The translations under genes and the position numbers were made by a program. A stretch of 64,000 nt of DNA from Microscilla marina ATCC 23134 (lineage in GTDB: Bacteria; Bacteroidota; Bacteroidia; Cytophagales; Microscillaceae): positions 7,192-71,191 of the forward strand of contig NZ_AAWS01000006.1 of the NCBI RefSeq assembly GCF_000169175.1. Direction: 5' to 3'. This document shows, one piece after another, positions 18,454 through 56,647 of the stretch (positions within the stretch are counted from its first letter, which is position 1; every line of letters starts with the position of its first letter). The notes under the pieces were generated by a model that had not been told where the DNA came from, did not search any database, and worked only from the letters and a program-made list of their open reading frames with translations.

Positions 18454-19482
18454 TTATCCGTTGAGCATGGTATTTTGATCGTTGTCAAACCAATCTTTAA
18501 TGGCTTTGATCCCATTGAGTGCCACTTGCAACGGTGGCATTTGTAATAACAATCCTTTTACGTTGAGTTTTTCGAGGTGGGGCAAGTGGGTGATGCTATG
18601 GGGCAAGTGGGTAATTTTAGTGTTTTCCAGGTTGAGTTTTTTCAAACTTTTAAGTCGGCTTATTTCAGGCAATAAAGTAGTAATATTGGTTTGACTAATG
18701 TCGAGATCTTCCAGACAGGACAGTTCAAACAATGCTTTGGGCAACAAACTCACTGGCAGGCTTTTTAGGCTGAGTTTACGCAATTGGGTAAGCTTGCCTA
18801 CGTTTTCGCCCAGTTGACTAATGTTGTTGTGGTTGAGACACAAGGCTTTTAAATTATATAATGTGTATATTTCTACAGGTACCTTGTCTAATCCCATCCC
18901 TGACAAGTCAAGTTCGTGGGTCTCACGTGCTTCAGAAATCCTCAGTCGACAATCAATCAATTTTTGAGACTGGTCGTTCAGGTGGTTTTCATCGGCAAAG
19001 ATATGTTCCAGGTGTTGCAACTGTAATAAGGTAAAAGGCAGGTCGGTAATTTGATTGGCGGTAATATTTAATAGTTCAAGTTGAGTAAGTTGTCCAATAG
19101 CCGCTGGAATACCCAACAGTTGATTGTGTTCAATAGAAAGCGATTTGAGGGCACACAAACAAGTAATTACTTCCGGAAACTTTTGTAATTGATTAGAGGT
19201 AAGGTTTAAACGCTCAAGGTTTTGGAGTTGGGCAAGTTCTTTAGGCAAATCTTTGAGTTGGTTTACCACCAAATTGAGTTCCCGCAAATTACTTAACCGG
19301 GCAATGTGTGCCGGAATAACCGATATACGATTGAAATGTAAACGAAGAATTTCTAACTGCGGCAACTCAAATACTTGAGCAGGAATGGCGTTGAGTGCCA
19401 AGCCTCCCAAATCTAATTCATTTAAATTTTTATCCTTTACTTCTTGTATTCTTTGGTATGCCTTTTTTTCGAGACTGTTCAT
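18454..19482 (-). CDS. Leucine-rich repeat (LRR) protein. The probable start is MNSLEKKAYQRIQ at 19480-19482.
   Basis: It has more than ten LxxLxLxxNxL 22-24-residue repeats. It shares an N-terminal motif with the other LRR paralogs in the window. Confidence 0.7.
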   Translation of the reverse strand: MNSLEKKAYQRIQEVKDKNLNELDLGGLALNAIPAQVFELPQLEILRLHFNRISVIPAHIARLSNLRELNLVVNQLKDLPKELAQLQNLERLNLTSNQLQKFPEVITCLCALKSLSIEHNQLLGIPAAIGQLTQLELLNITANQITDLPFTLLQLQHLEHIFADENHLNDQSQKLIDCRLRISEARETHELDLSGMGLDKVPVEIYTLYNLKALCLNHNNISQLGENVGKLTQLRKLSLKSLPVSLLPKALFELSCLEDLDISQTNITTLLPEISRLKSLKKLNLENTKITHLPHSITHLPHLEKLNVKGLLLQMPPLQVALNGIKAIKDWFDNDQNTMLNG

Positions 19483-19895
19483 CTGGATTTGCCTTTTTAC
19501 TCTTTTCCAATATATAAAATACTGATGAAAAATGCTAACAATAGTCCACAGCATTCAGTCGATAGTCGATGGCTTTTTCGTAAATACTCACATCTAACAA
19601 TATACTGATAACCAATGGTTTAAAAGTTATTCTACCGTATTGATATTTTTTTGGCTGTTTGCTCAAAAGTCCCAAATACAGTTTTTATTGAGTAAATAAC
19701 TCAGAATAATTGAAAGGGTTAACCTCCCCAATATAAAAAACGCTGAACCATTGATACTAAGGAATGTGACCGCCCCGTAAACGGGATTTCGGGCGTAGCC
19801 CTCAACAATAACAGCCCGATTTAGAACAGAGCCACAAGTTTTATAATCGATTATTTTATTCTTGTCGCTTGTGGCTCATGAGTCATAGCTTTAGG

Positions 19896-31158: not shown

Positions 31159-31944
31159 TTATAAAAAAAACTCATCTTCGTCTATTATCTTACACTTCCC
31201 CGAAAGTTGGCGAATAAATTCTACTTCCTTGGGTGACATAGGATTACCTGACACAATCACCTTTTTTAGTTTTTTTAGCTTTAGCTGAAAAGGTAGAAAC
31301 TGTACCTCATTATAAGCTATATCCAACACTTTCAGTTTTTGAAGCGCCCCTGATACACTAAGGTCATCACTATACAACTTATTACTACGCAGGTTTAACT
31401 CTGACAACTCAGTTAACTTAGCCATTTCTTCAGGCAACGATTTTATTTTATTATAACTTAGATCAAGGTTTTGTAGCTGGTCTAAGTTCCCTATCTCTGG
31501 TGGGACTGTTTCTATACTATTATCACTTAAATTAAGTACTTCCAAACTCTTTAACTGCTCTATTTCGGGAGGTATATGCGTAATTTGTCGTTGAATCAAA
31601 AACAAAGACTTCAAACCTGTAAAAGCGAACAACTCTGGTGGAAACGGATTCACCATTATTTTTAATGAATGACCATCGGCAGTAGACAATGGCTTTGTGT
31701 TTTTATTGTTGCCAGGCTTTAAAAAATACAGCTCATTGTCATATATTTCAATCGCGTCTACTTGCTTAATAAACTCCATTTCTACATTATTCTTAATGCA
31801 AGAAATAGGATATTTTCTTAACTCCTTGGTCACTTTTTCATTGTACTCTCCATTTTTCCCCAAACACAATTGAAAAGCAAGTGCTATGTTATGAGCATCT
31901 TTAGTTTTCAAAAGAGATAATATCTTTTTGTTATGATCTTCCAT
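31159..31944 (-). CDS. Leucine-rich repeat protein (paralog family).
   Basis: LRR repeats (LxxLxxLNLSDNSIETVPPEIGNL...). The N-terminal motif KKILSLLKTKDAHNIALAFQLCLG is shared with 54611 and 55877. Confidence 0.7.
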   Translation of the reverse strand: MEDHNKKILSLLKTKDAHNIALAFQLCLGKNGEYNEKVTKELRKYPISCIKNNVEMEFIKQVDAIEIYDNELYFLKPGNNKNTKPLSTADGHSLKIMVNPFPPELFAFTGLKSLFLIQRQITHIPPEIEQLKSLEVLNLSDNSIETVPPEIGNLDQLQNLDLSYNKIKSLPEEMAKLTELSELNLRSNKLYSDDLSVSGALQKLKVLDIAYNEVQFLPFQLKLKKLKKVIVSGNPMSPKEVEFIRQLSGKCKIIDEDEFFL

Positions 31945-32398
31945 TGTTTTTTAATACTTATAAAACCACAAAAATACACCTTTGCTCAAAAAAAAAACAC
32001 GCAAGGCTTCTCTTTAGTCATCTTTCAATAAATAATTTGAGCTATTAAAGTGTATCTATTGCCCTCATTCTTCTCAAAAAAAAGCTTCATAACTTCGGCT
32101 ATGCACCGTTTTTTTGCATCGTCTGAGAACAATATATTTTCTTGAATTGGCACCTCTTATTTTTTCCGGATCACTTATCAATTTTATGAAAAAAAATTTC
32201 ATTAATATTTCTTGGCAAATGTGGACGCTAAATATATGATACATTGTATTTTTGGGTAAAGCTTTATAATAGAGACCAGTGGTAAGCGGCAAATCGCAAG
32301 TTGTATATACCTTCTTCTACTTTATACTTGTGTTAGGTCACTTGCTACCTACCTCTTTCAAAATATACTTACTAACAAGTCTAACAATTTCAAAAACA

Positions 32399-46794: not shown

Positions 46795-48081
46795 ATGGTT
46801 GAAGATAACCCTACAAACCCCGATTCAGGAGACAAAAAACCTACCCACGATCCGTTTGATATGCTCAAAGGAGACACTCCTACCGGCAGCACTCCACCTC
46901 CAGAAAAAGAAGAAAATAAAGAGGAAGACAACACAGGAAACAAACAAGAAACTTCTTCCACAACGGGTAGCGACCCGTTTGATATGGTAGAAAAACACCC
47001 TACCTCCGGAACAACACCCTCTACCCCTACTGTCAATACTGGTGGCGACCCGTTTGATATGGTAGAAAAGCAACCTACTTCTGGTACCACTCCCCCCATT
47101 ACCAATACTGCTGACCCGCTCAACACAGCAGGGCAATCTACGGGTTCTACATCTCAGCCTGACTTGCCTAAACCATCAGAAGACCCTTTAACTGGGCAAT
47201 CGGGTACTGCGGGTTCTGCGTCTCAACCTAATTTGCCACAAACTCCCCTGACGGGGCAGTCAGGTACAACTACTGGTTCTACCTCTCAACCTGATTTGTC
47301 TTCTACACCACAAAACCTGTCTACTCCTCCCCCTCCTAATACATCAATACCTACACCTACTGCTACCTCTGTACCCAACCCGCAGCCCATACCCAATATT
47401 GCTACGCCACCACCCAATGCCCACAAAGCAGCAGAGCGGGAAGCGTATCAGTCTAAAATAGATATGAATGCAGTATTGGCTGCTGCCAATAAGGTAAACC
47501 AAATGCCTAAACTACAGGCCACTTCTATGGAAAAATTAGATGAAGCACTATTTACCAAACGGCATAGAACCAAAGTAGGCCCTGAAGAAAAAGAGGAGGT
47601 AGAACAAAAGCTTCAGTATTTGGTAAATAAGATTAAAAAAGACTTGGCTTTTTATAACAATAAAGAGAAAAAGTCGGGTAAATGGACATTGATATTCAGT
47701 GTATTGTCTTCTTTATTGGCGGCTTCTGTAACCGTATTACTAGGTTTGAATATTACAGACTTTATGCGTAAACATAATTTTGACTGGTATATCAATACTA
47801 TAGCCTTGATTATTAGTGCATTTATTTCGGTAATTGGAGTTTTGCAAAACTTTACAGACTCCAAACCTTTATGGGTTAAATATACCGATACCTCCAACAA
47901 GTATCAACAGTTGCTAGACAATATTGAGTATATGCAACTGGCAGGTAATTATATCACACTAGATGATGTAAATCAGATAAAACTTGCCTATAACCGAATA
48001 AAAGATGGTACAAACAACTATATCATTCAGGTAAGAAGCCAAGATGATGGTACTGGAAACTCGTCACTTCTCAGGTCGTAA
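46795..48081 (+). CDS. Repeat protein. The N-terminal Pro/Thr/Ser-rich low-complexity region carries three DPFDM(V/L)EK repeats. The C-terminal region is two-TM plus helical and may be SLATT/DUF4231-like.
   Basis: DPFDMLKGD, DPFDMVEKHPTSGTTP and DPFDMVEKQPTSGTTPP repeats. The C-terminus has WTLIFSVLSSLLAASVTVLLGL and YINTIALIISAFISVIGVL TM helices followed by an amphipathic tail. Confidence 0.5.
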   Translation: MVEDNPTNPDSGDKKPTHDPFDMLKGDTPTGSTPPPEKEENKEEDNTGNKQETSSTTGSDPFDMVEKHPTSGTTPSTPTVNTGGDPFDMVEKQPTSGTTPPITNTADPLNTAGQSTGSTSQPDLPKPSEDPLTGQSGTAGSASQPNLPQTPLTGQSGTTTGSTSQPDLSSTPQNLSTPPPPNTSIPTPTATSVPNPQPIPNIATPPPNAHKAAEREAYQSKIDMNAVLAAANKVNQMPKLQATSMEKLDEALFTKRHRTKVGPEEKEEVEQKLQYLVNKIKKDLAFYNNKEKKSGKWTLIFSVLSSLLAASVTVLLGLNITDFMRKHNFDWYINTIALIISAFISVIGVLQNFTDSKPLWVKYTDTSNKYQQLLDNIEYMQLAGNYITLDDVNQIKLAYNRIKDGTNNYIIQVRSQDDGTGNSSLLRS

Positions 48082-50685: not shown

Positions 50686-50792
50686 GTTTTATTTGCATTA
50701 AAGTAACTTAAGTAGGGCATTTATTACCATACAGATACTCATCTGCAAAGGTACACGTTTTCAAAAGGTTTGGGTAAAAAAGTGGGGTAAAG

Positions 50793-51500
50793 TTAGATAA
50801 GGTCAAATGCCTGAGCAAAGCGAATCAAATCCACAAAGCGCCTAATTTCTAACTTACGCTTCAGGTTTTTGCGGTGTTGCTCGACAGTAGCCTTAGAGAT
50901 AAACAACTGTTCACCTATTTCGGTATTTTGATAACCTAAAGCCAATAAGGGAACTATTTCTAGCTCGCGTGGGGTCAAGCTGGCAAATTTATGATAGTTC
51001 ATTTTCATGTAATTTGTTTCTTCCAATGCCCTTACCATTTTATTGGTAACCTTGCCCACTTTTGCCAAAGGGATAGTAATACCAGCCAAACACGGTTGTT
51101 TATTATAAATACGTGAGGTAGTATACAATGGCTCAAGGCCTTTCACTGGGTCAATTGCCGCCCTTTGTACAAATCCGACGGCTTTACGTTTATGCTTGAG
51201 CAATACGTCTTTGATAAGTATGATCGACTTATTATAATCATCAGGATTCACATAACGCTTAAACAGGTCAGTAGGGGCATTTTGTACATCTTGCAAAGTA
51301 AGCTCAAAGCGCTCTAGGTGTTGCTTACTCAAAAACTTAGGAGCAAAAGTATGGATGTCATTCAAGTGCAGTAAAGCCCCTTGAATCAACTCACAGGCTT
51401 CCTCAAACGAATACCCGTTTTTAGTAATTCTTTGTTCTATCAAAAAGGTTTGACGTTCAAGAGCAACTAGTATTTCTTTTTCAGTAATAATTTGCTTCAT
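50793..51500 (-). CDS. LuxR-type HTH regulator, tandem paralog 5 of 5.
   Basis: C-terminus ASLTPRELEIVPLLALGYQNTEIGEQLFISKATVEQHRKNLKRKLEIRRFVDLIRFAQAFDLI (GerE/LuxR HTH). N-terminus MKQIITEKEILVALERQTFLIEQ. Confidence 0.75.
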   Translation of the reverse strand: MKQIITEKEILVALERQTFLIEQRITKNGYSFEEACELIQGALLHLNDIHTFAPKFLSKQHLERFELTLQDVQNAPTDLFKRYVNPDDYNKSIILIKDVLLKHKRKAVGFVQRAAIDPVKGLEPLYTTSRIYNKQPCLAGITIPLAKVGKVTNKMVRALEETNYMKMNYHKFASLTPRELEIVPLLALGYQNTEIGEQLFISKATVEQHRKNLKRKLEIRRFVDLIRFAQAFDLI

Positions 51501-51504
51501 TTTT

Positions 51505-52212
51505 CTAAATCAAATCAAACGCCTGAGCAAAGCGAATCAAATCCACAAAGCGCCTAATTTCTAACTTACGCTTCAGGTTTTTGCGGTGTTGCTCTACGGT
51601 AGCCTTAGAAATAAACAGCTGTTCGCCTATCTCATTATTTTGGTAGCCCAAAGCCAATAAAGTAATGATTTCTTTTTCGCGAGGGGTGAGTGAAGCAAAT
51701 TTGTGGTAGTTGTAACGCACATATAGAGTTTCCTCGATTGCACGAAGCATTTTATTTGTTATAACATCGATTGTTTTCAATGAAACGTGAACTCCCAATA
51801 ACTCTTGCTTGCTTTTCAATAAACTATTAGTTGTAAAAGTTCCTGGCTGAGATATATGAGGTCGGAAACGTTGAATAAAGCTCACTTTTTGACCTTTGGC
51901 TCCACGCAATATCTGCGTATTAACTAAATATGCCGCTCGTTCAAAGTCACCTGGGTTCAAATACTTTTGCACATAATTCGCAGGATTTTGTAATAAATCA
52001 TTGAGGTTCACACTAATGAAATCGTAAAAATCCTCATAAATATACCTTGGTAAAAGAGTGTGGACATCACTTAGGCTTACCATTGAACCTTTAGGTAAGT
52101 TTTGATTCAAGTCTTGCACCTTTATGATTTCCCTGTTCAATTTCTGCTCAATCAAAAACGTCTGGCGCTCTAAAGCTGCTATTATTTCTTTTTCAGTAAC
52201 AATCTTTTTCAT
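51505..52212 (-). CDS. LuxR-type HTH regulator, tandem paralog 4 of 5.
   Basis: Same conserved termini as the other four. Divergent middle region. 4-bp spacing to neighbours. Confidence 0.75.
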   Translation of the reverse strand: MKKIVTEKEIIAALERQTFLIEQKLNREIIKVQDLNQNLPKGSMVSLSDVHTLLPRYIYEDFYDFISVNLNDLLQNPANYVQKYLNPGDFERAAYLVNTQILRGAKGQKVSFIQRFRPHISQPGTFTTNSLLKSKQELLGVHVSLKTIDVITNKMLRAIEETLYVRYNYHKFASLTPREKEIITLLALGYQNNEIGEQLFISKATVEQHRKNLKRKLEIRRFVDLIRFAQAFDLI

Positions 52213-52213
52213 G

Positions 52214-52921
52214 TTAAATCAAATCAAATGCCTGAGCAAAGCGAATCAAATCCACAAAGCGCCTGACTTCCAGCTTACGCTTCAGGTTTTTGCGATACTG
52301 TTCTACGGTAGCCTTAGAAATAAACAGCTGTTCGCCTATCTCATTATTTTGGTAGCCCAAAGCCAATAAAGTAATGATTTCTTTTTCGCGGGGTGTCAAA
52401 GCAGCAAATTTGTAGTAGTTATTGCGCATGTACAGTGTTTCTTCTAATATACGCAGCATTTTATTAGTTACTTGCCCGACCTTTTCTAATGAGATAAGCA
52501 CACTAACCAAGGATTTTTTATAACTTTGACCATTTATCAATGTATAAAGCGGCAAATAATTCCCTGAGCCTACAGGTTTTACACGTTGAATATAACCAAT
52601 ACTTTTTCCCTTTAAAACAAAATCTTGTACTAGCCTAACTCCTTTTTCAAAATCACCTGGGTAGACTCCATTTTTGATAAATAAAGTAGGGTCATTCGCT
52701 ACAGTTTCTGTGGAGACATTCAGCTTTTTTTCAAAGTTTTTACCAAGATACTCAAGTGTAAACTCCTTATAACTATACAGGTTTACAGCATAATTATCTT
52801 CCTTGGTTAAAGTATTTGCCTCCTCAATAGTCATTTGTTGTGCTTTCAGCTTTTGCTCTATTAAAAAAGCCTGACGTTCTAGAGTTGCTATTATTTCTTT
52901 TTCAGTAACAATCTTTTTCAT
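52214..52921 (-). CDS. LuxR-type HTH regulator, tandem paralog 3 of 5.
   Basis: Same conserved termini. Divergent middle region. Confidence 0.75.
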   Translation of the reverse strand: MKKIVTEKEIIATLERQAFLIEQKLKAQQMTIEEANTLTKEDNYAVNLYSYKEFTLEYLGKNFEKKLNVSTETVANDPTLFIKNGVYPGDFEKGVRLVQDFVLKGKSIGYIQRVKPVGSGNYLPLYTLINGQSYKKSLVSVLISLEKVGQVTNKMLRILEETLYMRNNYYKFAALTPREKEIITLLALGYQNNEIGEQLFISKATVEQYRKNLKRKLEVRRFVDLIRFAQAFDLI

Positions 52922-52922
52922 G

Positions 52923-53639
52923 TTAAATCAAATCAAATGCCTGAGCAAAACGGATTAAATCCACAAAGCGCCTGACTTCCAGCTTGCGCTTCAGGTTTTT
53001 GCGGTGTTGCTCTACGGTAGCTTTAGAAATAAACAGTTGCTCACCAATCTCATTGTTTTGGTAGCCCAATACCAGTAAAGTAATGATTTCTTTTTCGCGA
53101 TTGGTAAGAGTAGCAAATTTGCGGTAATGATGGCGTACATATAGCGTTTCTTCTAACAAACGGGTCATTTTATTAGTAGCAACACCAAACTCTTCTACAG
53201 GAAGTACTAAGTTACACAATTTACCTGTCAAAACATTTTGCTTGGCTACAGTAAACATCCCACTATAATCACTATCTTTCTTATACAACTTTGTGCGTTG
53301 TATATAGCTTATGGGTAAGTCTTTTGATTTTGTTGATAAATGTTTCTTTAGTAAAACTACTGATTTTTCAAAGTCTCCTGGAAACAAGCATTCTTGTATA
53401 ACAGACATTGGTTTTTCAAAGAATATATTGTGCGGAATGTTTAACATATCTAACGATTTGTGCCCTATGTACGAAGGCAGCATAGTTTTCAAATCTAACA
53501 AGTTAATAACAATTCGCCCTGGTAAACTATCGTTCAATGCTTCTATGCTTACCCCGTCTTTATTCATTCTTTGCTGAATCAAAAAAGCCTGACGCTCTAA
53601 CGCTTCTAATATTTCTTTTTCTGTAAAAACTTTTGCCAT
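52923..53639 (-). CDS. LuxR-type HTH regulator, tandem paralog 2 of 5.
   Basis: Same conserved termini. Divergent middle region. Confidence 0.75.
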   Translation of the reverse strand: MAKVFTEKEILEALERQAFLIQQRMNKDGVSIEALNDSLPGRIVINLLDLKTMLPSYIGHKSLDMLNIPHNIFFEKPMSVIQECLFPGDFEKSVVLLKKHLSTKSKDLPISYIQRTKLYKKDSDYSGMFTVAKQNVLTGKLCNLVLPVEEFGVATNKMTRLLEETLYVRHHYRKFATLTNREKEIITLLVLGYQNNEIGEQLFISKATVEQHRKNLKRKLEVRRFVDLIRFAQAFDLI

Positions 53640-53640
53640 T

Positions 53641-54354
53641 TTAAATCAAATCAAATGCTTGGGCAAAACGAATTAAGTCTACAAATCGCTTTATTTCCAG
53701 CTTACGCTTTAGGTTTTTACGATGTTGCTCTACAGTAGCTTTAGAAATAAACAGTTGTTCGCCTATTTCACTGTTTTGGTAGCCCAATGCCAGTAAAGTA
53801 ATGATTTCTTTTTCGCGAGCGGTAAGTGAGGCAAATTTGTGGTAATGATGACGTACATACAACGTTTCTTCCAACAAACGGGTCATTTTATTGGTTACTT
53901 GCCCTAGGTTTTTGACCCTAATCAGTATATTAGATAATTCTTTTTTATGGCGGTTTTGTTTAGTAACAGTAAACATGCCTTCATACACATCGCCACCATA
54001 TAACTTTAACCTTTGAATAAAACTTACTGGTGCAAAACGATTCTCACCTGAAAAGTGACTGGACACAATAGAAGCATTTTTTTCAAAATCCCCTGGATAC
54101 ACAAGCTTTTGGATATACTCAGAAGGGTTTTTGAAATATAACTCTCTAGGAGCATCAAGCATTTTTAAGGATTGGTCGCTCAAATAAACGGGTACAAAAT
54201 CTTCTGAACTATTCAAGGTTACCATGACCCCCTTTGGCACACTTTCATTTAAATCTACAATGCTCATAGCATCCAGGTTCAATTTCTGCTCAATCAGAAA
54301 AGCCTGGCGCTCTAATGCCTCTAATATTTCTTTCTCACTAACAATGCGCTTCAT
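53641..54354 (-). CDS. LuxR-type HTH regulator, tandem paralog 1 of 5 (promoter-proximal).
   Basis: Same conserved termini. Divergent middle region. It is preceded by a 256-bp AT-rich divergent promoter region. Confidence 0.75.
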   Translation of the reverse strand: MKRIVSEKEILEALERQAFLIEQKLNLDAMSIVDLNESVPKGVMVTLNSSEDFVPVYLSDQSLKMLDAPRELYFKNPSEYIQKLVYPGDFEKNASIVSSHFSGENRFAPVSFIQRLKLYGGDVYEGMFTVTKQNRHKKELSNILIRVKNLGQVTNKMTRLLEETLYVRHHYHKFASLTAREKEIITLLALGYQNSEIGEQLFISKATVEQHRKNLKRKLEIKRFVDLIRFAQAFDLI

Positions 54355-54610
54355 GTTATGTTGTTAACTTGATTGATAAAGGTTGTGTTTTCAGTGTCTT
54401 TTCAGCTTTTCCTCTTTTGCCCTTCTCTATAATTTACAATTTTAACAATAAACGCCAAAATTAGTAAAACCATCAAATATACCCTCAAGTGTATAGTAAT
54501 GCTTCTTTTTAATAAAAAAAAATATTTAAACTTCAGAGTATTACCTGCTTGAAAAAACACCATAAGTTGCCTAACTTTTACTATTCACTCAAGCCCAACT
54601 TACAACCTAA

Positions 54611-55324
54611 ATGAATGCTCAATATTTAAAAAACGATCCAGAGTTTGCCCACAAACTCACCCAATTGCTTGATAGCTATGACGATGTCAACATCAGGCTT
54701 GCCTACCAACTGATGCAAGGAGGTGGAGTGCCCAACTCATTGGCTAAACGTATTTCTGATAATATTCAAGGTAAAATTTTATGCCTGGAGTATAGGCTTA
54801 CTTCTCTTTTGACACACTTACAAATACTTCAGATACACGATACTCACTTGCAAGAGTTACCCTCAGCTATTGGCGATTTACAAGCACTGGTTATACTGGA
54901 GCTCATCAACAATCAACTTGTTTGTTTGCCACCCGAAATACAATACCTGCAACAACTGACCGACTTGCAACTAGTAGCCAATCGCCTCATTGGCTTGCCA
55001 GAAGAAATAAAAGCACTTAAAAAGCTTGAAAAGCTGAACATATACGGTAATCAACTTAAGGTATTTCCAGAAGCATTACTTCATTTACCCAAACTTGAAT
55101 CGTTGAACTTGGGAGCCAATCAACTACAGGCTTTACCCACTCAAATGCCTCAGATGCGTGCTTTACGAAAATTGGATATTGGCACCAACCCTATGCAAAA
55201 TATAGTAGCAGTGCTCACTCAAATGCCTTGGTTAGAAATATTATCGTTGAGCGGGCTCAAGCTGTCAGACCGGGAATGGCAACAATTAAAAGTAAAATTG
55301 CCCTATACACAAATCATTCGTTAG
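54611..55324 (+). CDS. Leucine-rich repeat protein (paralog family).
   Basis: LxxLxxLxLxxNxLxxLPxEI repeats. N-terminal motif KLTQLLDSYDDVNIRLAYQLMQGGGVP. Confidence 0.7.
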   Translation: MNAQYLKNDPEFAHKLTQLLDSYDDVNIRLAYQLMQGGGVPNSLAKRISDNIQGKILCLEYRLTSLLTHLQILQIHDTHLQELPSAIGDLQALVILELINNQLVCLPPEIQYLQQLTDLQLVANRLIGLPEEIKALKKLEKLNIYGNQLKVFPEALLHLPKLESLNLGANQLQALPTQMPQMRALRKLDIGTNPMQNIVAVLTQMPWLEILSLSGLKLSDREWQQLKVKLPYTQIIR

Positions 55325-55876: not shown

Positions 55877-56647
55877 ATGAATACACCTAATTACTTACAA
55901 GACAACCCTGACTATATAAAAAAAGTAAGTCAATTGCTCCTGAGCGACAACCCCGAAAATATAGAGTTGGGGTTTCAGATCGTAAAAGGTGCTGGCACTA
56001 TTCCAGTCAAACTCTACCCTATACTCACCAATAACCGATATAAGGTGGTAAAGTGTCTCGAATATAGTTTTACCGATTTATTACAATCACGCAAGAAGAT
56101 TAACTTGAACTACTTAAGGCTAAAGCGACTTCCTTTGCCGCTTTTGCAACTCAAAAGCCTTCAACACCTGGGGCTTGCTGGCAATCCCCAACTCAACAAC
56201 CCACAAACGTTTGAGCTGCTTGCTCAAATGCCAGGGCTGAAGGCATTAGATTTATATTCCTGGCACTTGACAGAAGTACCCAAGGCATTGCTCAACCTCC
56301 AACATCTCCAGCATTTGGGGTTAGGAGCCAACCCCCACCTCAACCTTGACTTAGTTTTTACTCAACTCAGGGGCTTGCCTCAACTTGAGTCGTTGAGTTT
56401 GTACAATAACAAGCTCAAGACTTTGCCTCCAGGTATTCGTGTACTTGATCAACTCAAAAAACTTGATTTAAGTGATAACTATTTTGAAGGTTTGCCAGAA
56501 GTGATCCACCAAATGCCTCGCCTCAAACACTTGGAATTGTGCGATAATAGAGGGACTGATTACTGGGATCATTTCTGGGATATTGATAATGAGGATGCCC
56601 GTAAATTACAAAAGGAATTTCCAAACATAGTGATCACATTTGGCTAA
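55877..56647 (+). CDS. Leucine-rich repeat protein (paralog family).
   Basis: LRR repeats. N-terminal motif KKVSQLLLSDNPENIELGFQIVKGAGTIP. Confidence 0.7.
   Translation: MNTPNYLQDNPDYIKKVSQLLLSDNPENIELGFQIVKGAGTIPVKLYPILTNNRYKVVKCLEYSFTDLLQSRKKINLNYLRLKRLPLPLLQLKSLQHLGLAGNPQLNNPQTFELLAQMPGLKALDLYSWHLTEVPKALLNLQHLQHLGLGANPHLNLDLVFTQLRGLPQLESLSLYNNKLKTLPPGIRVLDQLKKLDLSDNYFEGLPEVIHQMPRLKHLELCDNRGTDYWDHFWDIDNEDARKLQKEFPNIVITFG

What the first reader, a model, noticed from the sequence alone, without database searches (positions are those of the whole stretch)
50793..54354. Five tightly packed tandem LuxR-type regulator paralogs with near-identical termini and hypervariable central domains
Five genes of 235-238 aa sit in tandem with 1-4 bp spacing. 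Each starts with about 25 near-identical residues (MKKIVTEKEIIAALERQTFLIEQKL...). Each ends with a nearly nucleotide-identical roughly 90-aa block (VTNKMLRxLEETLYVR.NYHKFASLTPREKEIITLLALGYQNNEIGEQLFISKATVEQHRKNLKRKLEIRRFVDLIRFAQAFDLI), which is a GerE/LuxR HTH. The roughly 120-aa middle regions are almost unalignable with one another. Conserved ends with diversified cores point to repeated duplication with gene conversion at the termini. They also suggest diversifying selection on a ligand- or partner-binding module, and a shared DNA target. The array is transcribed divergently from two of the LRR paralogs. I do not recognise this architecture as a described family.
Basis: seen in the sequence. 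Interest (0 to 1): 0.7.

Follow-up and report, generated by a model that had tools for sequence, protein, structure and literature searches.

The report
Tandem PAS-LuxR sensor-regulator array
Five back-to-back genes in Microscilla marina encode transcription regulators with nearly the same DNA-binding end but five old, different PAS sensor domains; this resembles the clustered PAS-LuxR 'solo' receptors of Photorhabdus, here in a new bacterial phylum and always beside two leucine-rich-repeat genes.

Summary
The five genes exist as described (minus strand, 235-238 aa, joined as TAA-N-ATG). The wording was too strong in two places. The C-terminal blocks are 69-85% identical at DNA level, not nearly identical. 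The middles align almost without gaps at 20-40% amino-acid identity.

AlphaFold models of the first and the most divergent copy (pLDDT 88) show the same layout: N-cap helix, PAS domain, linker helix, LuxR/GerE HTH. The closest structures are EL222, 3CLO and VqmA.

The sensors are not hypervariable. Each has a cross-genome ortholog (four pairs at bootstrap 99-100%, one at 77%) and evolves under purifying selection (pN/pS 0.06 between near-identical strains). The HTH is nearly invariant across all Microscillaceae copies and well conserved across Bacteroidota, so selection explains most of the conserved ends.

Gene conversion is real but secondary. HTH-coding DNA groups by genome (W.3+W.4 95%), and its synonymous divergence is below that of orthologs (Fisher p=3e-5).

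Related genomes carry 2-7 copies, with mosaic genes whose breakpoints lie in or near the conserved ends. A divergent LRR gene pair accompanies the array in seven of eight arrays. Signals, DNA targets and co-transcription are inferred, not shown.

Verdict: a new variant of a known kind, of moderate interest.

The parts
53641..54354 (-). W.1, the first gene of the array (237 aa), a PAS-LuxR regulator. N-cap helix aa 7-26 (54277-54336), PAS core aa 43-146 (53917-54228), linker helix aa 155-175 (53830-53892), HTH aa 176-233 (53656-53829).
   Evidence: ORF. GerE E=7e-18. AF2 model with pLDDT 88.6 and PAS topology. PAS and LuxR structural matches. Ortholog L009.1 at 99% bootstrap.
52923..53639 (-). 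W.2 (238 aa), a PAS-LuxR paralog. Its sensor ortholog is L009.3.
   Evidence: 100% bootstrap.
52214..52921 (-). W.3 (235 aa), a PAS-LuxR paralog. Its sensor ortholog is L009.2, so gene order differs from L009.
   Evidence: 100% bootstrap.
51505..52212 (-). W.4 (235 aa), a PAS-LuxR paralog, identical to database protein P0001 from Microscilla marina.
50793..51500 (-). W.5 (235 aa), the last and most divergent paralog. Its ortholog is L008.2.
   Evidence: AF2 model with pLDDT 88.2 and the same PAS-linker-HTH topology.
52214..52393 (-). 3' HTH-coding segment of W.3 (last 59 codons plus stop). With 51505-51684 (W.4), 52923-53102 (W.2) and 53641-53820 (W.1), it forms the tracts showing within-genome homogenisation.
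   Evidence: C2 pS is 0.21 for W.3-W.4 and 0.41 for W.2-W.3 and W.1-W.2, against 0.64-0.76 for W-L009 orthologs. Fisher p=3e-5. Bootstrap for W.3+W.4 is 95%.
54355..54610 (.). Divergent intergenic control region between the array and LRR-A. Several sequence blocks are conserved between clades whose synonymous sites are saturated.
   Evidence: Alignment of six loci. Flank pS of about 0.8 between clades.
54564..54577 (+). AAGTTGCCTAACTT, a 14-bp near-palindrome 35-48 nt upstream of the LRR-A ATG and a candidate operator. A second candidate dyad, TTCAAG-N11-CTGAAG, lies at 54531-54553.
   Evidence: Conserved in all six loci. No covariation supporting an RNA stem. Not enriched elsewhere in the window. 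Function untested.
54611..55324 (+). LRR-A (237 aa), a leucine-rich-repeat protein with a ~70-aa non-LRR N-terminal region, transcribed divergently from the array.
   Evidence: Pfam LRR_8 E=1.5e-18. Adjacent to the array in seven of eight distinct arrays, all but L006.
55877..56647 (+). LRR-B (256 aa), a paralog of LRR-A and the second conserved neighbour.
   Evidence: Pfam LRR_8 E=9e-15. Conserved synteny.

Best explanation
The locus is probably an operon of five paralogous one-component transcription factors.

Shown:
- Each protein has an N-terminal capping helix, a PAS sensor domain, a long linker helix and a LuxR/GerE helix-turn-helix.
- The duplications are old. They predate the split of Microscillaceae genera, because each sensor type has orthologs in other genomes.
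- Each sensor is kept by purifying selection.
- The DNA-contacting helices, the last HTH helix and the N-cap helix are held nearly invariant in all copies. Strong purifying selection is the main cause, and occasional gene conversion between neighbouring 3' ends adds to it in the Microscilla and L009 lineages.
- The conserved block formed by one gene's 3' end, the junction and the next gene's 5' end recurs along the array.
- Copy number varies from 2 to 7, and mosaic genes have breakpoints in or near the conserved ends.

Inferred:
- Each paralog binds a different small-molecule signal (or partner) through its PAS domain. Binding changes how the PAS domain and linker hold the HTH, as in EL222 and VqmA.
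- All paralogs then bind the same operator type as dimers. Several signals therefore converge on one set of promoters.
- The most likely targets are the shared divergent promoter region and the two conserved LRR genes.
- Unequal homologous recombination between the repeated conserved blocks adds, removes or swaps whole sensors in frame, which would account for the copy-number variation and the mosaics.
- The five genes are co-transcribed.
For: Anatomy:
- Five intact ORFs with TAA-N-ATG junctions, and no excess of terminator-like sites.
- GerE HTH in all five.

Fold:
- AF2 models of W.1 and W.5 (pLDDT 88.6 and 88.2) both show N-cap helix, beta-beta-4 alpha-3 beta PAS topology, linker helix and HTH.
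- Foldseek top hits are EL222, 3CLO and VqmA.
- Pfam PAS_3 hits occur in 9 of 46 distant relatives, a few of them large multi-PAS histidine kinases.

Old paralogs under constraint:
- The sensor tree groups W.1/L009.1, W.2/L009.3, W.3/L009.2 and W.5/L008.2 at 99-100% bootstrap.
- Ortholog sensor pN is 0.09-0.39 against pS 0.6-0.85.
- L002 vs L003 sensors show 17 synonymous and 4 nonsynonymous differences (pN/pS 0.06).

Shared output:
- Recognition helix identity is 0.93-0.97 and the last helix 0.96-1.00 across 32 copies.
- HTH pN between genera is 0.01-0.06, while the flanking proteins are only 68-75% identical.

Conversion.

Turnover:
- Arrays have 2, 3, 4, 5, 5, 5, 6 and 7 copies.
- L008.1 has the head of W.1 (93% DNA identity), a distinct sensor, and a tail colinear with W.4.
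- The last 55 codons of L002.4 are 100% identical to L003.5, but its sensor is different.

Linkage to the LRR pair: the pair and the array stay contiguous although the outer flanks differ between clades (TMEM260-like and Lnt in one, a 401-aa protein and MacB in the other).
Against: - No ligand, DNA target, dimer or transcript has been observed. The function rests on analogy with other PAS-LuxR regulators.
- No operator motif could be established. No k-mer of 8 nt or more is shared by all upstream regions, and the candidate palindrome is not enriched in the window.
- One array (L006) lacks the LRR genes, so the LRR link is not obligatory.
- Only five sensor residues (P87, G88, Q114, R115, T129) are conserved across the Microscillaceae copies. 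A common ligand head-group, or no ligand at all, is not excluded.
- pS is saturated in most inter-genome comparisons. The HTH test rests on about 38 synonymous sites per pair.
- The 2-copy array (L008) comes from a single short-read MAG and could be a collapsed assembly.
Confidence: 0.6

Rival explanations
1. Cassette diversification. The cores are hypervariable modules under diversifying selection, and the ends are kept identical mainly by gene conversion, as in antigenic-variation or contingency loci.
For: - The ends are conserved and the cores divergent.
- There is a 3' conversion signal.
- Near-identical strains L002 and L003 differ in one array slot, with an unrelated sensor and one extra gene.
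- W and L008 flanks are 90-93% identical, but the arrays differ by three genes.
- The array ortholog pair W.5/L008.2 is more diverged than its flanks.
Against: - Sensors have orthologs across genera at 99-100% bootstrap.
- pN/pS is 0.06 between close strains and at most 0.17 where it can be estimated between species.
- End conservation holds between genomes that cannot convert each other.
- Five of the seven genomes with three or more copies show saturated within-array HTH pS.
- All copies are complete genes with start codons, not silent cassettes.
- No recombinase or reverse-transcriptase gene is among the annotated neighbours.
Confidence: 0.12
2. Redundant local amplification. The copies do the same job (dosage), the cores are simply drifting under relaxed constraint, and the HTH is the only part that matters.
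For: - Single-copy homologs are the rule elsewhere in Bacteroidota.
- Copy number varies freely from 2 to 7.
- Only five sensor residues are conserved among all copies.
Against: - Sensors are under strong purifying selection within each ortholog group.
- Distinct sensor types are retained across genera.
- Both models keep a confident PAS fold.
- No copy carries a frameshift or stop.
Confidence: 0.13
3. Obligate hetero-oligomer. The paralogs are subunits that pair with each other through the invariant N-cap, linker and last HTH helix, so that the array computes combinations of signals. The LRR proteins are common binding partners rather than targets.
For: - The N-cap helix (0.70-0.76 identity), linker helix and last HTH helix (0.96-1.00) are the elements that mediate dimerisation in other PAS and LuxR proteins (established knowledge), and they are the conserved parts here.
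- The genes are tightly packed.
- The LRR pair is co-inherited with the array.
Against: - There is no direct evidence. Homodimers would explain the same conservation.
- Single-copy relatives presumably work alone.
- The L006 array lacks the LRR genes.
Confidence: 0.15

Closest known systems
Photorhabdus PAS4-LuxR solos (e.g. plu0915-plu0925, plu2001-plu2016; PMC4235431)
   Same: - Proteins of about 230-250 aa with an N-terminal PAS-type sensor and a C-terminal LuxR HTH.
- Many paralogs arranged in tandem clusters or operons.
- Variable sensor motifs with a conserved HTH.
- Signals unknown, and the 'high redundancy' unexplained.
   Different: - A different phylum (Bacteroidota, not Gammaproteobacteria).
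- Pfam PAS_4 (PF08448), which defines that group, does not hit these proteins. The only weak sequence link is to PAS_3.
- Smaller arrays (2-7 copies).
- A conserved divergent LRR gene pair.
- Segment-specific concerted evolution and mosaic genes are documented here. The parts of that paper I read do not mention them.
VqmA (Vibrio and vibriophage receptor for DPO)
   Same: PAS + LuxR-type HTH one-component receptor, and among the best structural matches (6ide, 6ugl, 7dwm).
   Different: - The sensor is not related by sequence. The family profile matches VqmA only in the HTH (E about 3e-3).
- VqmA is a single gene next to its vqmR target, not an array.
EL222 (LOV-HTH light-regulated factor of Erythrobacter litoralis)
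   Different: There is no LOV signature. No conserved cysteine or GXNCRFLQ motif occurs in any copy, so these are not flavin photoreceptors.
3CLO (Bacteroides thetaiotaomicron NP_811094.1, structural-genomics PAS-LuxR protein)
   Same: From the same phylum with the same two-domain architecture. It is the second-best Foldseek hit (E=1.5e-7).
   Different: Sequence similarity is limited to the HTH. Its function is also unknown.
Streptomyces PAS-LuxR pathway regulators (PimM, PteF, CfaR; PMC9774167, PMC4380410)
   Same: N-terminal PAS plus C-terminal LuxR HTH activators (titles and abstracts).
   Different: Those are single genes inside biosynthetic gene clusters. Here the immediate neighbours are LRR, Lnt, inositol-phosphatase and glycosyltransferase-like genes, and the genes form an array.

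Membership tests
LuxR/GerE (NarL/FixJ-type) HTH superfamily | C-terminal four-helix GerE-type HTH (Pfam PF00196) above the gathering score | tested here: met
   All five score 61.6-67.0 bits against a cutoff of 23.5. The models show four helices at aa 179-233.
PAS-domain sensors | PAS fold: five-stranded antiparallel sheet with the order 2 beta, 4 alpha, 3 beta | tested here: met
PAS-domain sensors | Match to a curated PAS sequence model (Pfam PAS clan) | tested here: inconclusive
   None of the five window proteins hits a PAS model at E<=1. PAS_3 matches 2 of 49 close members at E=0.007 and 9 of 46 distant relatives, some of them large multi-PAS histidine kinases.
PAS4-LuxR solos (Photorhabdus type) | N-terminal PAS_4 domain (PF08448), as used to define the group in PMC4235431 | tested here: not met
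   No PF08448 hit in the five proteins or in the 49 family members.
PAS4-LuxR solos (Photorhabdus type) | Many paralogs organised in tandem gene clusters or operons | tested here: met
   Five tandem genes here, and 2-7 in relatives.
LuxR solos (general) | No cognate LuxI-type synthase gene adjacent | tested here: inconclusive
   The neighbours within about 5 kb are LRR, Lnt, inositol-phosphatase and TMEM260-like genes plus two proteins with no Pfam match. The rest of the genome was not examined.
LOV-HTH photoreceptors (EL222 type) | Conserved flavin-adduct cysteine in a GXNCRFLQ motif | tested here: not met
   No conserved cysteine and no such motif appears in the alignments of 5 and 37 copies.
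AHL-type LuxR receptors | Autoinducer-binding domain (PF03472) | tested here: not met
   There is no Pfam hit. NCBIfam hits to SdiA and PA1136-family models mostly cover the C-terminal HTH and linker and all fall far below their cutoffs.
NarL/FixJ response regulators (the name NCBI gives these proteins) | N-terminal receiver domain (PF00072) with the phospho-acceptor aspartate pocket | tested here: not met
   There is no Response_reg hit. All NCBIfam response-regulator hits cover only the C-terminal ~70 aa and fall far below their cutoffs. The N-terminal fold is PAS.
VqmA family | Sensor domain homologous to the DPO-binding PAS of VqmA | tested here: not met
   The family profile aligns to VqmA only over the HTH (query 176-221, E about 3e-3). 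The resemblance is at fold level only.
Known anti-phage defence systems (PADLOC) | Match of the sensor or the LRR proteins to a defence-system model | tested here: not met
   There are only HTH-region hits to CARF-HTH models, and none for LRR-A or LRR-B.

The most novel reading that the evidence does not exclude
The array is an evolvable, modular signal integrator. The invariant N-cap, linker and HTH let any two paralogs heterodimerise on one operator, so the cell reads combinations of signals. The same invariant segments act as in-frame recombination handles, through which strains gain, lose and exchange whole PAS sensors. The co-inherited LRR pair would be the common output or partner.
Probability: 0.15. 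Interest if true: 0.7.

Novelty: new variant of a known kind. Interest (0 to 1): 0.42.

Why it matters
Clusters of PAS-LuxR 'solo' receptors have been known in Photorhabdus since 2008. Nobody knows what they sense or why so many sit together.

This locus shows the same design arising independently in Bacteroidota, in a small and tractable form. The array has 2-7 genes in a cultured organism, with one conserved neighbouring gene pair that is an obvious candidate target.

The locus also shows the segments of one gene evolving differently:
- The sensors behave as old orthologs.
- The HTH is frozen by selection and partly homogenised by conversion.
- Recombination breakpoints fall in or near the conserved ends.

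That makes it a good system for asking how bacteria add new inputs to an existing regulatory output. It also corrects the database name 'response regulator', because these proteins have no receiver domain.

Tried and rejected
- **Shared operator by k-mer search:** no k-mer of 8 nt or more is common to all seven LRR-linked upstream regions.
- **Candidate 14-bp palindrome as a regulon marker:** one exact and four one-mismatch matches in the window, against 6.8 expected.
- **RNA hairpin in front of LRR-A:** a 7-bp stem, -4.5 kcal/mol, with no compensatory changes.
- **Rfam:** no family anywhere in the window.
- **Sigma-70 promoter scan:** no more hits than in shuffles, and not suited to Bacteroidota.
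- **PADLOC:** only HTH-level hits.
- **Sequence-profile search of the PDB for the sensor:** only the HTH matches.
- **Literature:** no paper combines PAS-LuxR with Bacteroidetes, and the three papers mentioning both Microscilla marina and LuxR have titles and abstracts on other topics; I did not read them.
- **afdb50 fold search:** not available.
- **Gene conversion at the 5' conserved block:** within-genome and between-genome pS overlap, and there are only 25 codons.
- **Response-regulator reading (the NCBI name):** rejected, because there is no receiver domain.
- **LOV photoreceptor reading:** rejected, because there is no conserved cysteine.


Full report
**Naming.** W.1 to W.5 are the five genes in transcription order on the minus strand. 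W.1 is 53641-54354 and W.5 is 50793-51500. "C2" is the last 59 codons, which encode the HTH. L-numbers are related loci fetched from public assemblies.

Five ORFs lie on the minus strand at 53641-54354, 52923-53639, 52214-52921, 51505-52212 and 50793-51500. They encode 237, 238, 235, 235 and 235 aa. Spacers are 1, 1, 1 and 4 nt, and every junction reads TAA-N-ATG. All five carry a GerE/LuxR HTH in the last ~57 residues (PF00196, 62-67 bits against a cutoff of 23.5). No Pfam model matches residues 1-170.

Two LRR genes are transcribed divergently at 54611-55324 and 55877-56647.

Identity between the five copies depends strongly on the segment:

| Segment (aa) | Amino-acid identity | DNA identity |
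|---|---|---|
| 1-25 | 73% | 69-85% |
| 26-150 | 26% (20-40%) | 38-51% |
| 151-end | 84% | 69-85% |

- The C-terminal blocks are not nearly nucleotide-identical.
- The middles are not unalignable. They align with only a few 1-3-residue gaps and share conserved positions.

**2. What the proteins are**

W.4 is identical to a Microscilla marina protein on a 295,532-bp contig. The only M. marina family members found are these five.

AlphaFold2 models built with family alignments are confident for both W.1 and the most divergent copy W.5 (pLDDT 88.6 and 88.2). Both have the same order of elements:
- a long N-terminal helix (aa 7-26);
- two strands, four helices and three strands, which is the canonical PAS topology (aa 43-146);
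- a long linker helix (aa 155-175);
- a four-helix HTH.

The structure searches agree:
- Foldseek against the PDB ranks EL222 (LOV-HTH), 3CLO (an uncharacterised Bacteroides PAS-LuxR protein) and VqmA (a PAS-LuxR receptor) first, then the AHL-type LuxR receptors.

By sequence, the family profile reaches solved structures only through the HTH. Pfam PAS_3 is hit by 2 of 49 close members and 9 of 46 distant ones.

These proteins are PAS-LuxR one-component regulators. The NCBI name 'response regulator transcription factor' is wrong, because there is no receiver domain. There is no LOV cysteine motif and no autoinducer-binding domain.

**3. Distribution and neighbourhood**

Close relatives (at least 42% identity over the full length) occur only in Microscillaceae and related MAGs, and always in tandem:

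| Locus | Source | Copies |
|---|---|---|
| L008/L011 | uncultured Microscilla sp. | 2 |
| L013 | Cytophagaceae MAG | 2 |
| L006/L007 | metagenome | 3 |
| L001/L012 | marine bacterium AO1-C | 4 |
| window | M. marina | 5 |
| L009/L010 | metagenome | 5 |
| L004/L005 | coral metagenome | 5 |
| L002 | metagenome | 6 |
| L003/L014 | Microscillaceae UBA11690 | 7 |

Independent assemblies confirm three of these arrays: the 7-copy one, the coral 5-copy one and the L009 5-copy one.

Full-length relatives at 30-35% identity are widespread in Bacteroidota, including Chitinophaga, Bacteroidales, Adhaeribacter and Albibacterium. They are almost always single-copy, with unrelated neighbours. Only Balneola has tandem sets of 2-3.

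A profile of the sensor alone finds just 125 representatives (clustered at 50% identity) among 1.84 billion proteins. Nearly all are 220-245 aa. This is a small family with one fixed architecture.

The LRR-A/LRR-B pair sits divergent to the array in every Microscillaceae locus except L006. The outer flanks differ between the two clades. One has a TMEM260-like gene and Lnt. The other has a 401-aa protein and MacB. The LRR pair and the array therefore travel as a unit.

**4. Why the ends are conserved**

Most of the end conservation is due to selection:
- The last ~40 residues are nearly the same in all genomes, not only within M. marina.
- Across 32 non-redundant copies, the recognition helix is 93% identical and the last helix 96% identical.
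- HTH pN between genera is 0.01-0.06, while flanking proteins are only 68-75% identical.
- The same gradient exists in distant Bacteroidota homologs (sensor 16% identity, HTH 55%) and in the independent Balneola arrays (sensor 24-35%, HTH 63-81%).

Gene conversion adds to this in some lineages:
- At four-fold degenerate sites of identical residues, the five copies share the same base in 64% of cases in the HTH. In the sensor the figure is 35%, which is the saturated level.
- HTH pS among W.1-W.4 averages 0.42 and is lowest between neighbours (0.21 for W.3-W.4). For W-L009 orthologs it is 0.64-0.76.
- The W.3-W.4 contrast is significant: 8 differences at 38 sites against 27 at 39 sites (Fisher p=3e-5).
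- The trees disagree with each other:

| Segment | Grouping | Bootstrap |
|---|---|---|
| Sensor | ortholog pairs across genomes | 99-100% (W.4+L008.1: 77%) |
| HTH DNA | the three W-L009 ortholog pairs | 0% |
| HTH DNA | W.3+W.4 | 95% |
| HTH DNA | L009.1+L009.3 | 87% |
| HTH DNA | L009.4+L009.5 | 90% |

- In L001, L002, L003, L004 and L006, within-array HTH pS is saturated at 0.72-0.77, so those arrays show no recent conversion.
- I found no clear conversion signal in the 25 N-terminal codons.

**5. Are the cores hypervariable?**

They are not hypervariable in the sense of diversifying selection. Each M. marina sensor has a cross-genome ortholog:
- W.1 with L009.1
- W.2 with L009.3
- W.3 with L009.2
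- W.5 with L008.2
- W.4, more weakly, with L008.1

Ortholog pairs show pN 0.09-0.39 against pS 0.6-0.85. The near-identical strains L002 and L003 allow an unsaturated estimate. Their sensors differ by 17 synonymous and 4 nonsynonymous changes, a pN/pS of 0.06. The cores are old, individually constrained paralogs.

What does change fast is the content of the array:
- W and L008 have flanks that are 90-93% identical (pS 0.15-0.42, pN about 0.04), yet W has five genes and L008 has two.
- L008.1 is a mosaic. Its first ~35 codons are 93% identical to W.1, its sensor matches no W copy closely, and from about codon 137 its tail runs colinear with W.4 into W.5.
- L002 and L003 have five shared genes that are 98-99% identical. 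In one slot, L002 has a single gene where L003 has two. That gene's last 55 codons are 100% identical to L003.5, but its sensor is different.
- Gene order also differs between W and L009.

Most breakpoints lie in the conserved ends. The 3' breakpoint of L008.1, near codon 137, lies just upstream of the conserved C-terminal block. This is what homologous recombination between the repeated block (3' end, junction, next 5' end) would produce.

One caveat is that the 2-copy L008 array comes from a single short-read MAG and could be partly collapsed.

**6. How it most likely works**

Shown:
- the domain architecture;
- the age of the sensors and the constraint on them;
- the invariance of the DNA-contacting helices;
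- the tight packing of the genes;
- the linkage to the LRR pair.

Inferred:
- The five genes form one operon. The junctions are TAA-N-ATG and there is no excess of terminator-like sites.
- Each PAS domain responds to its own signal and controls its HTH through the linker helix, by analogy with EL222 and VqmA.
- All copies recognise the same operator.
- The divergent control region (54355-54610) and the LRR genes are the likeliest targets.

That control region keeps several conserved blocks between clades with saturated synonymous sites. They include a 14-bp near-palindrome at 54564-54577 and a TTCAAG-N11-CTGAAG dyad at 54531-54553. I could not show that either is an operator.

Because the invariant parts are those that usually mediate dimerisation, heterodimers are possible. 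This was not tested.

**7. Comparison with what is known**

[quoted passage not shown] There are about 80 of them in three species, mostly in tandem clusters or operons. Their signals are unknown and their redundancy is unexplained (PMC4235431).

The present family is not a member by that paper's definition, because PF08448 does not hit. It also lies in another phylum. It shares the design, however.

PimM-type PAS-LuxR regulators of Streptomyces are single, cluster-situated genes. I found no paper on such arrays in Bacteroidota.

**8. Verdict**

The feature is real and now well characterised:
- It is a tandem array of PAS-LuxR regulators with a frozen output domain and old, distinct sensors.
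- It evolves by gene gain and loss, with recombination in or near the conserved ends and occasional 3' gene conversion.
- It is linked to an LRR gene pair.

It is a new variant of a known kind and of moderate interest.

One result remains unexplained. The retained ortholog pair W.5/L008.2 is about 2.4 times more diverged at synonymous sites than its flanks.

Noticed in passing
window 54564-54577 and 54531-54553: Two conserved dyad-like elements lie in the divergent control region. One is the near-palindrome AAGTTGCCTAACTT, 35-48 nt upstream of the LRR-A ATG. The other is TTCAAG-N11-CTGAAG. Both are conserved between clades with saturated synonymous sites. They are candidate operators, but they show no covariation for an RNA stem and no enrichment elsewhere in the window.
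   Followed up: partly
window 18457-19554 (-) and 31162-31950 (-): Two further ORFs match the LRR-A/LRR-B profile through their repeat region (159 and 130 bits). The window therefore holds four LRR genes in all.
   Followed up: no
window 46795-48081 (+): A 428-aa ORF has no Pfam match. Its N-terminal half is low-complexity, with repeated DPFDMVEK-x-PTSGTTP units, and its C-terminal part looks membrane-spanning.
   Followed up: no
window 50686-50792: The 107-nt spacer between the last array gene and lnt contains TACCTTTG, a perfect match to the Bacteroidetes -7 promoter consensus TAnnTTTG (the consensus is from my own knowledge). lnt probably has its own promoter.
   Followed up: no
W.5 (50793-51500) versus L008:6006-6713: This clear ortholog pair has sensor pS 0.68 and HTH pS 0.48, while the flanking single-copy genes have pS 0.15-0.42. 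The array is a local divergence hotspot even where orthology is retained. This is unexplained.
   Followed up: partly
L025:6904-9056, L034:7605-9051, L035:7593-9046, L040:7569-9051 (Balneola): Independent tandem sets of 2-3 distant family members in Balneola show the same gradient: sensor 24-35% identity and HTH 63-81%.
   Followed up: partly
P0066, P0075, P0113 (about 450 aa): Three proteins found with the sensor-only profile contain two sensor stretches each. They may be fused tandem copies or merged gene calls.
   Followed up: no
L006:8001-10253: A three-copy array has longer spacers (49 and 65 nt) and no LRR neighbours. It sits next to a 1692-aa protein and a beta-lactamase-fold gene. The LRR linkage is therefore not universal.
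   Followed up: no
window 50793-54354, database names: NCBI names all five proteins 'response regulator transcription factor', although they have no receiver domain. JGI calls relatives 'CsgD family'.
   Followed up: yes
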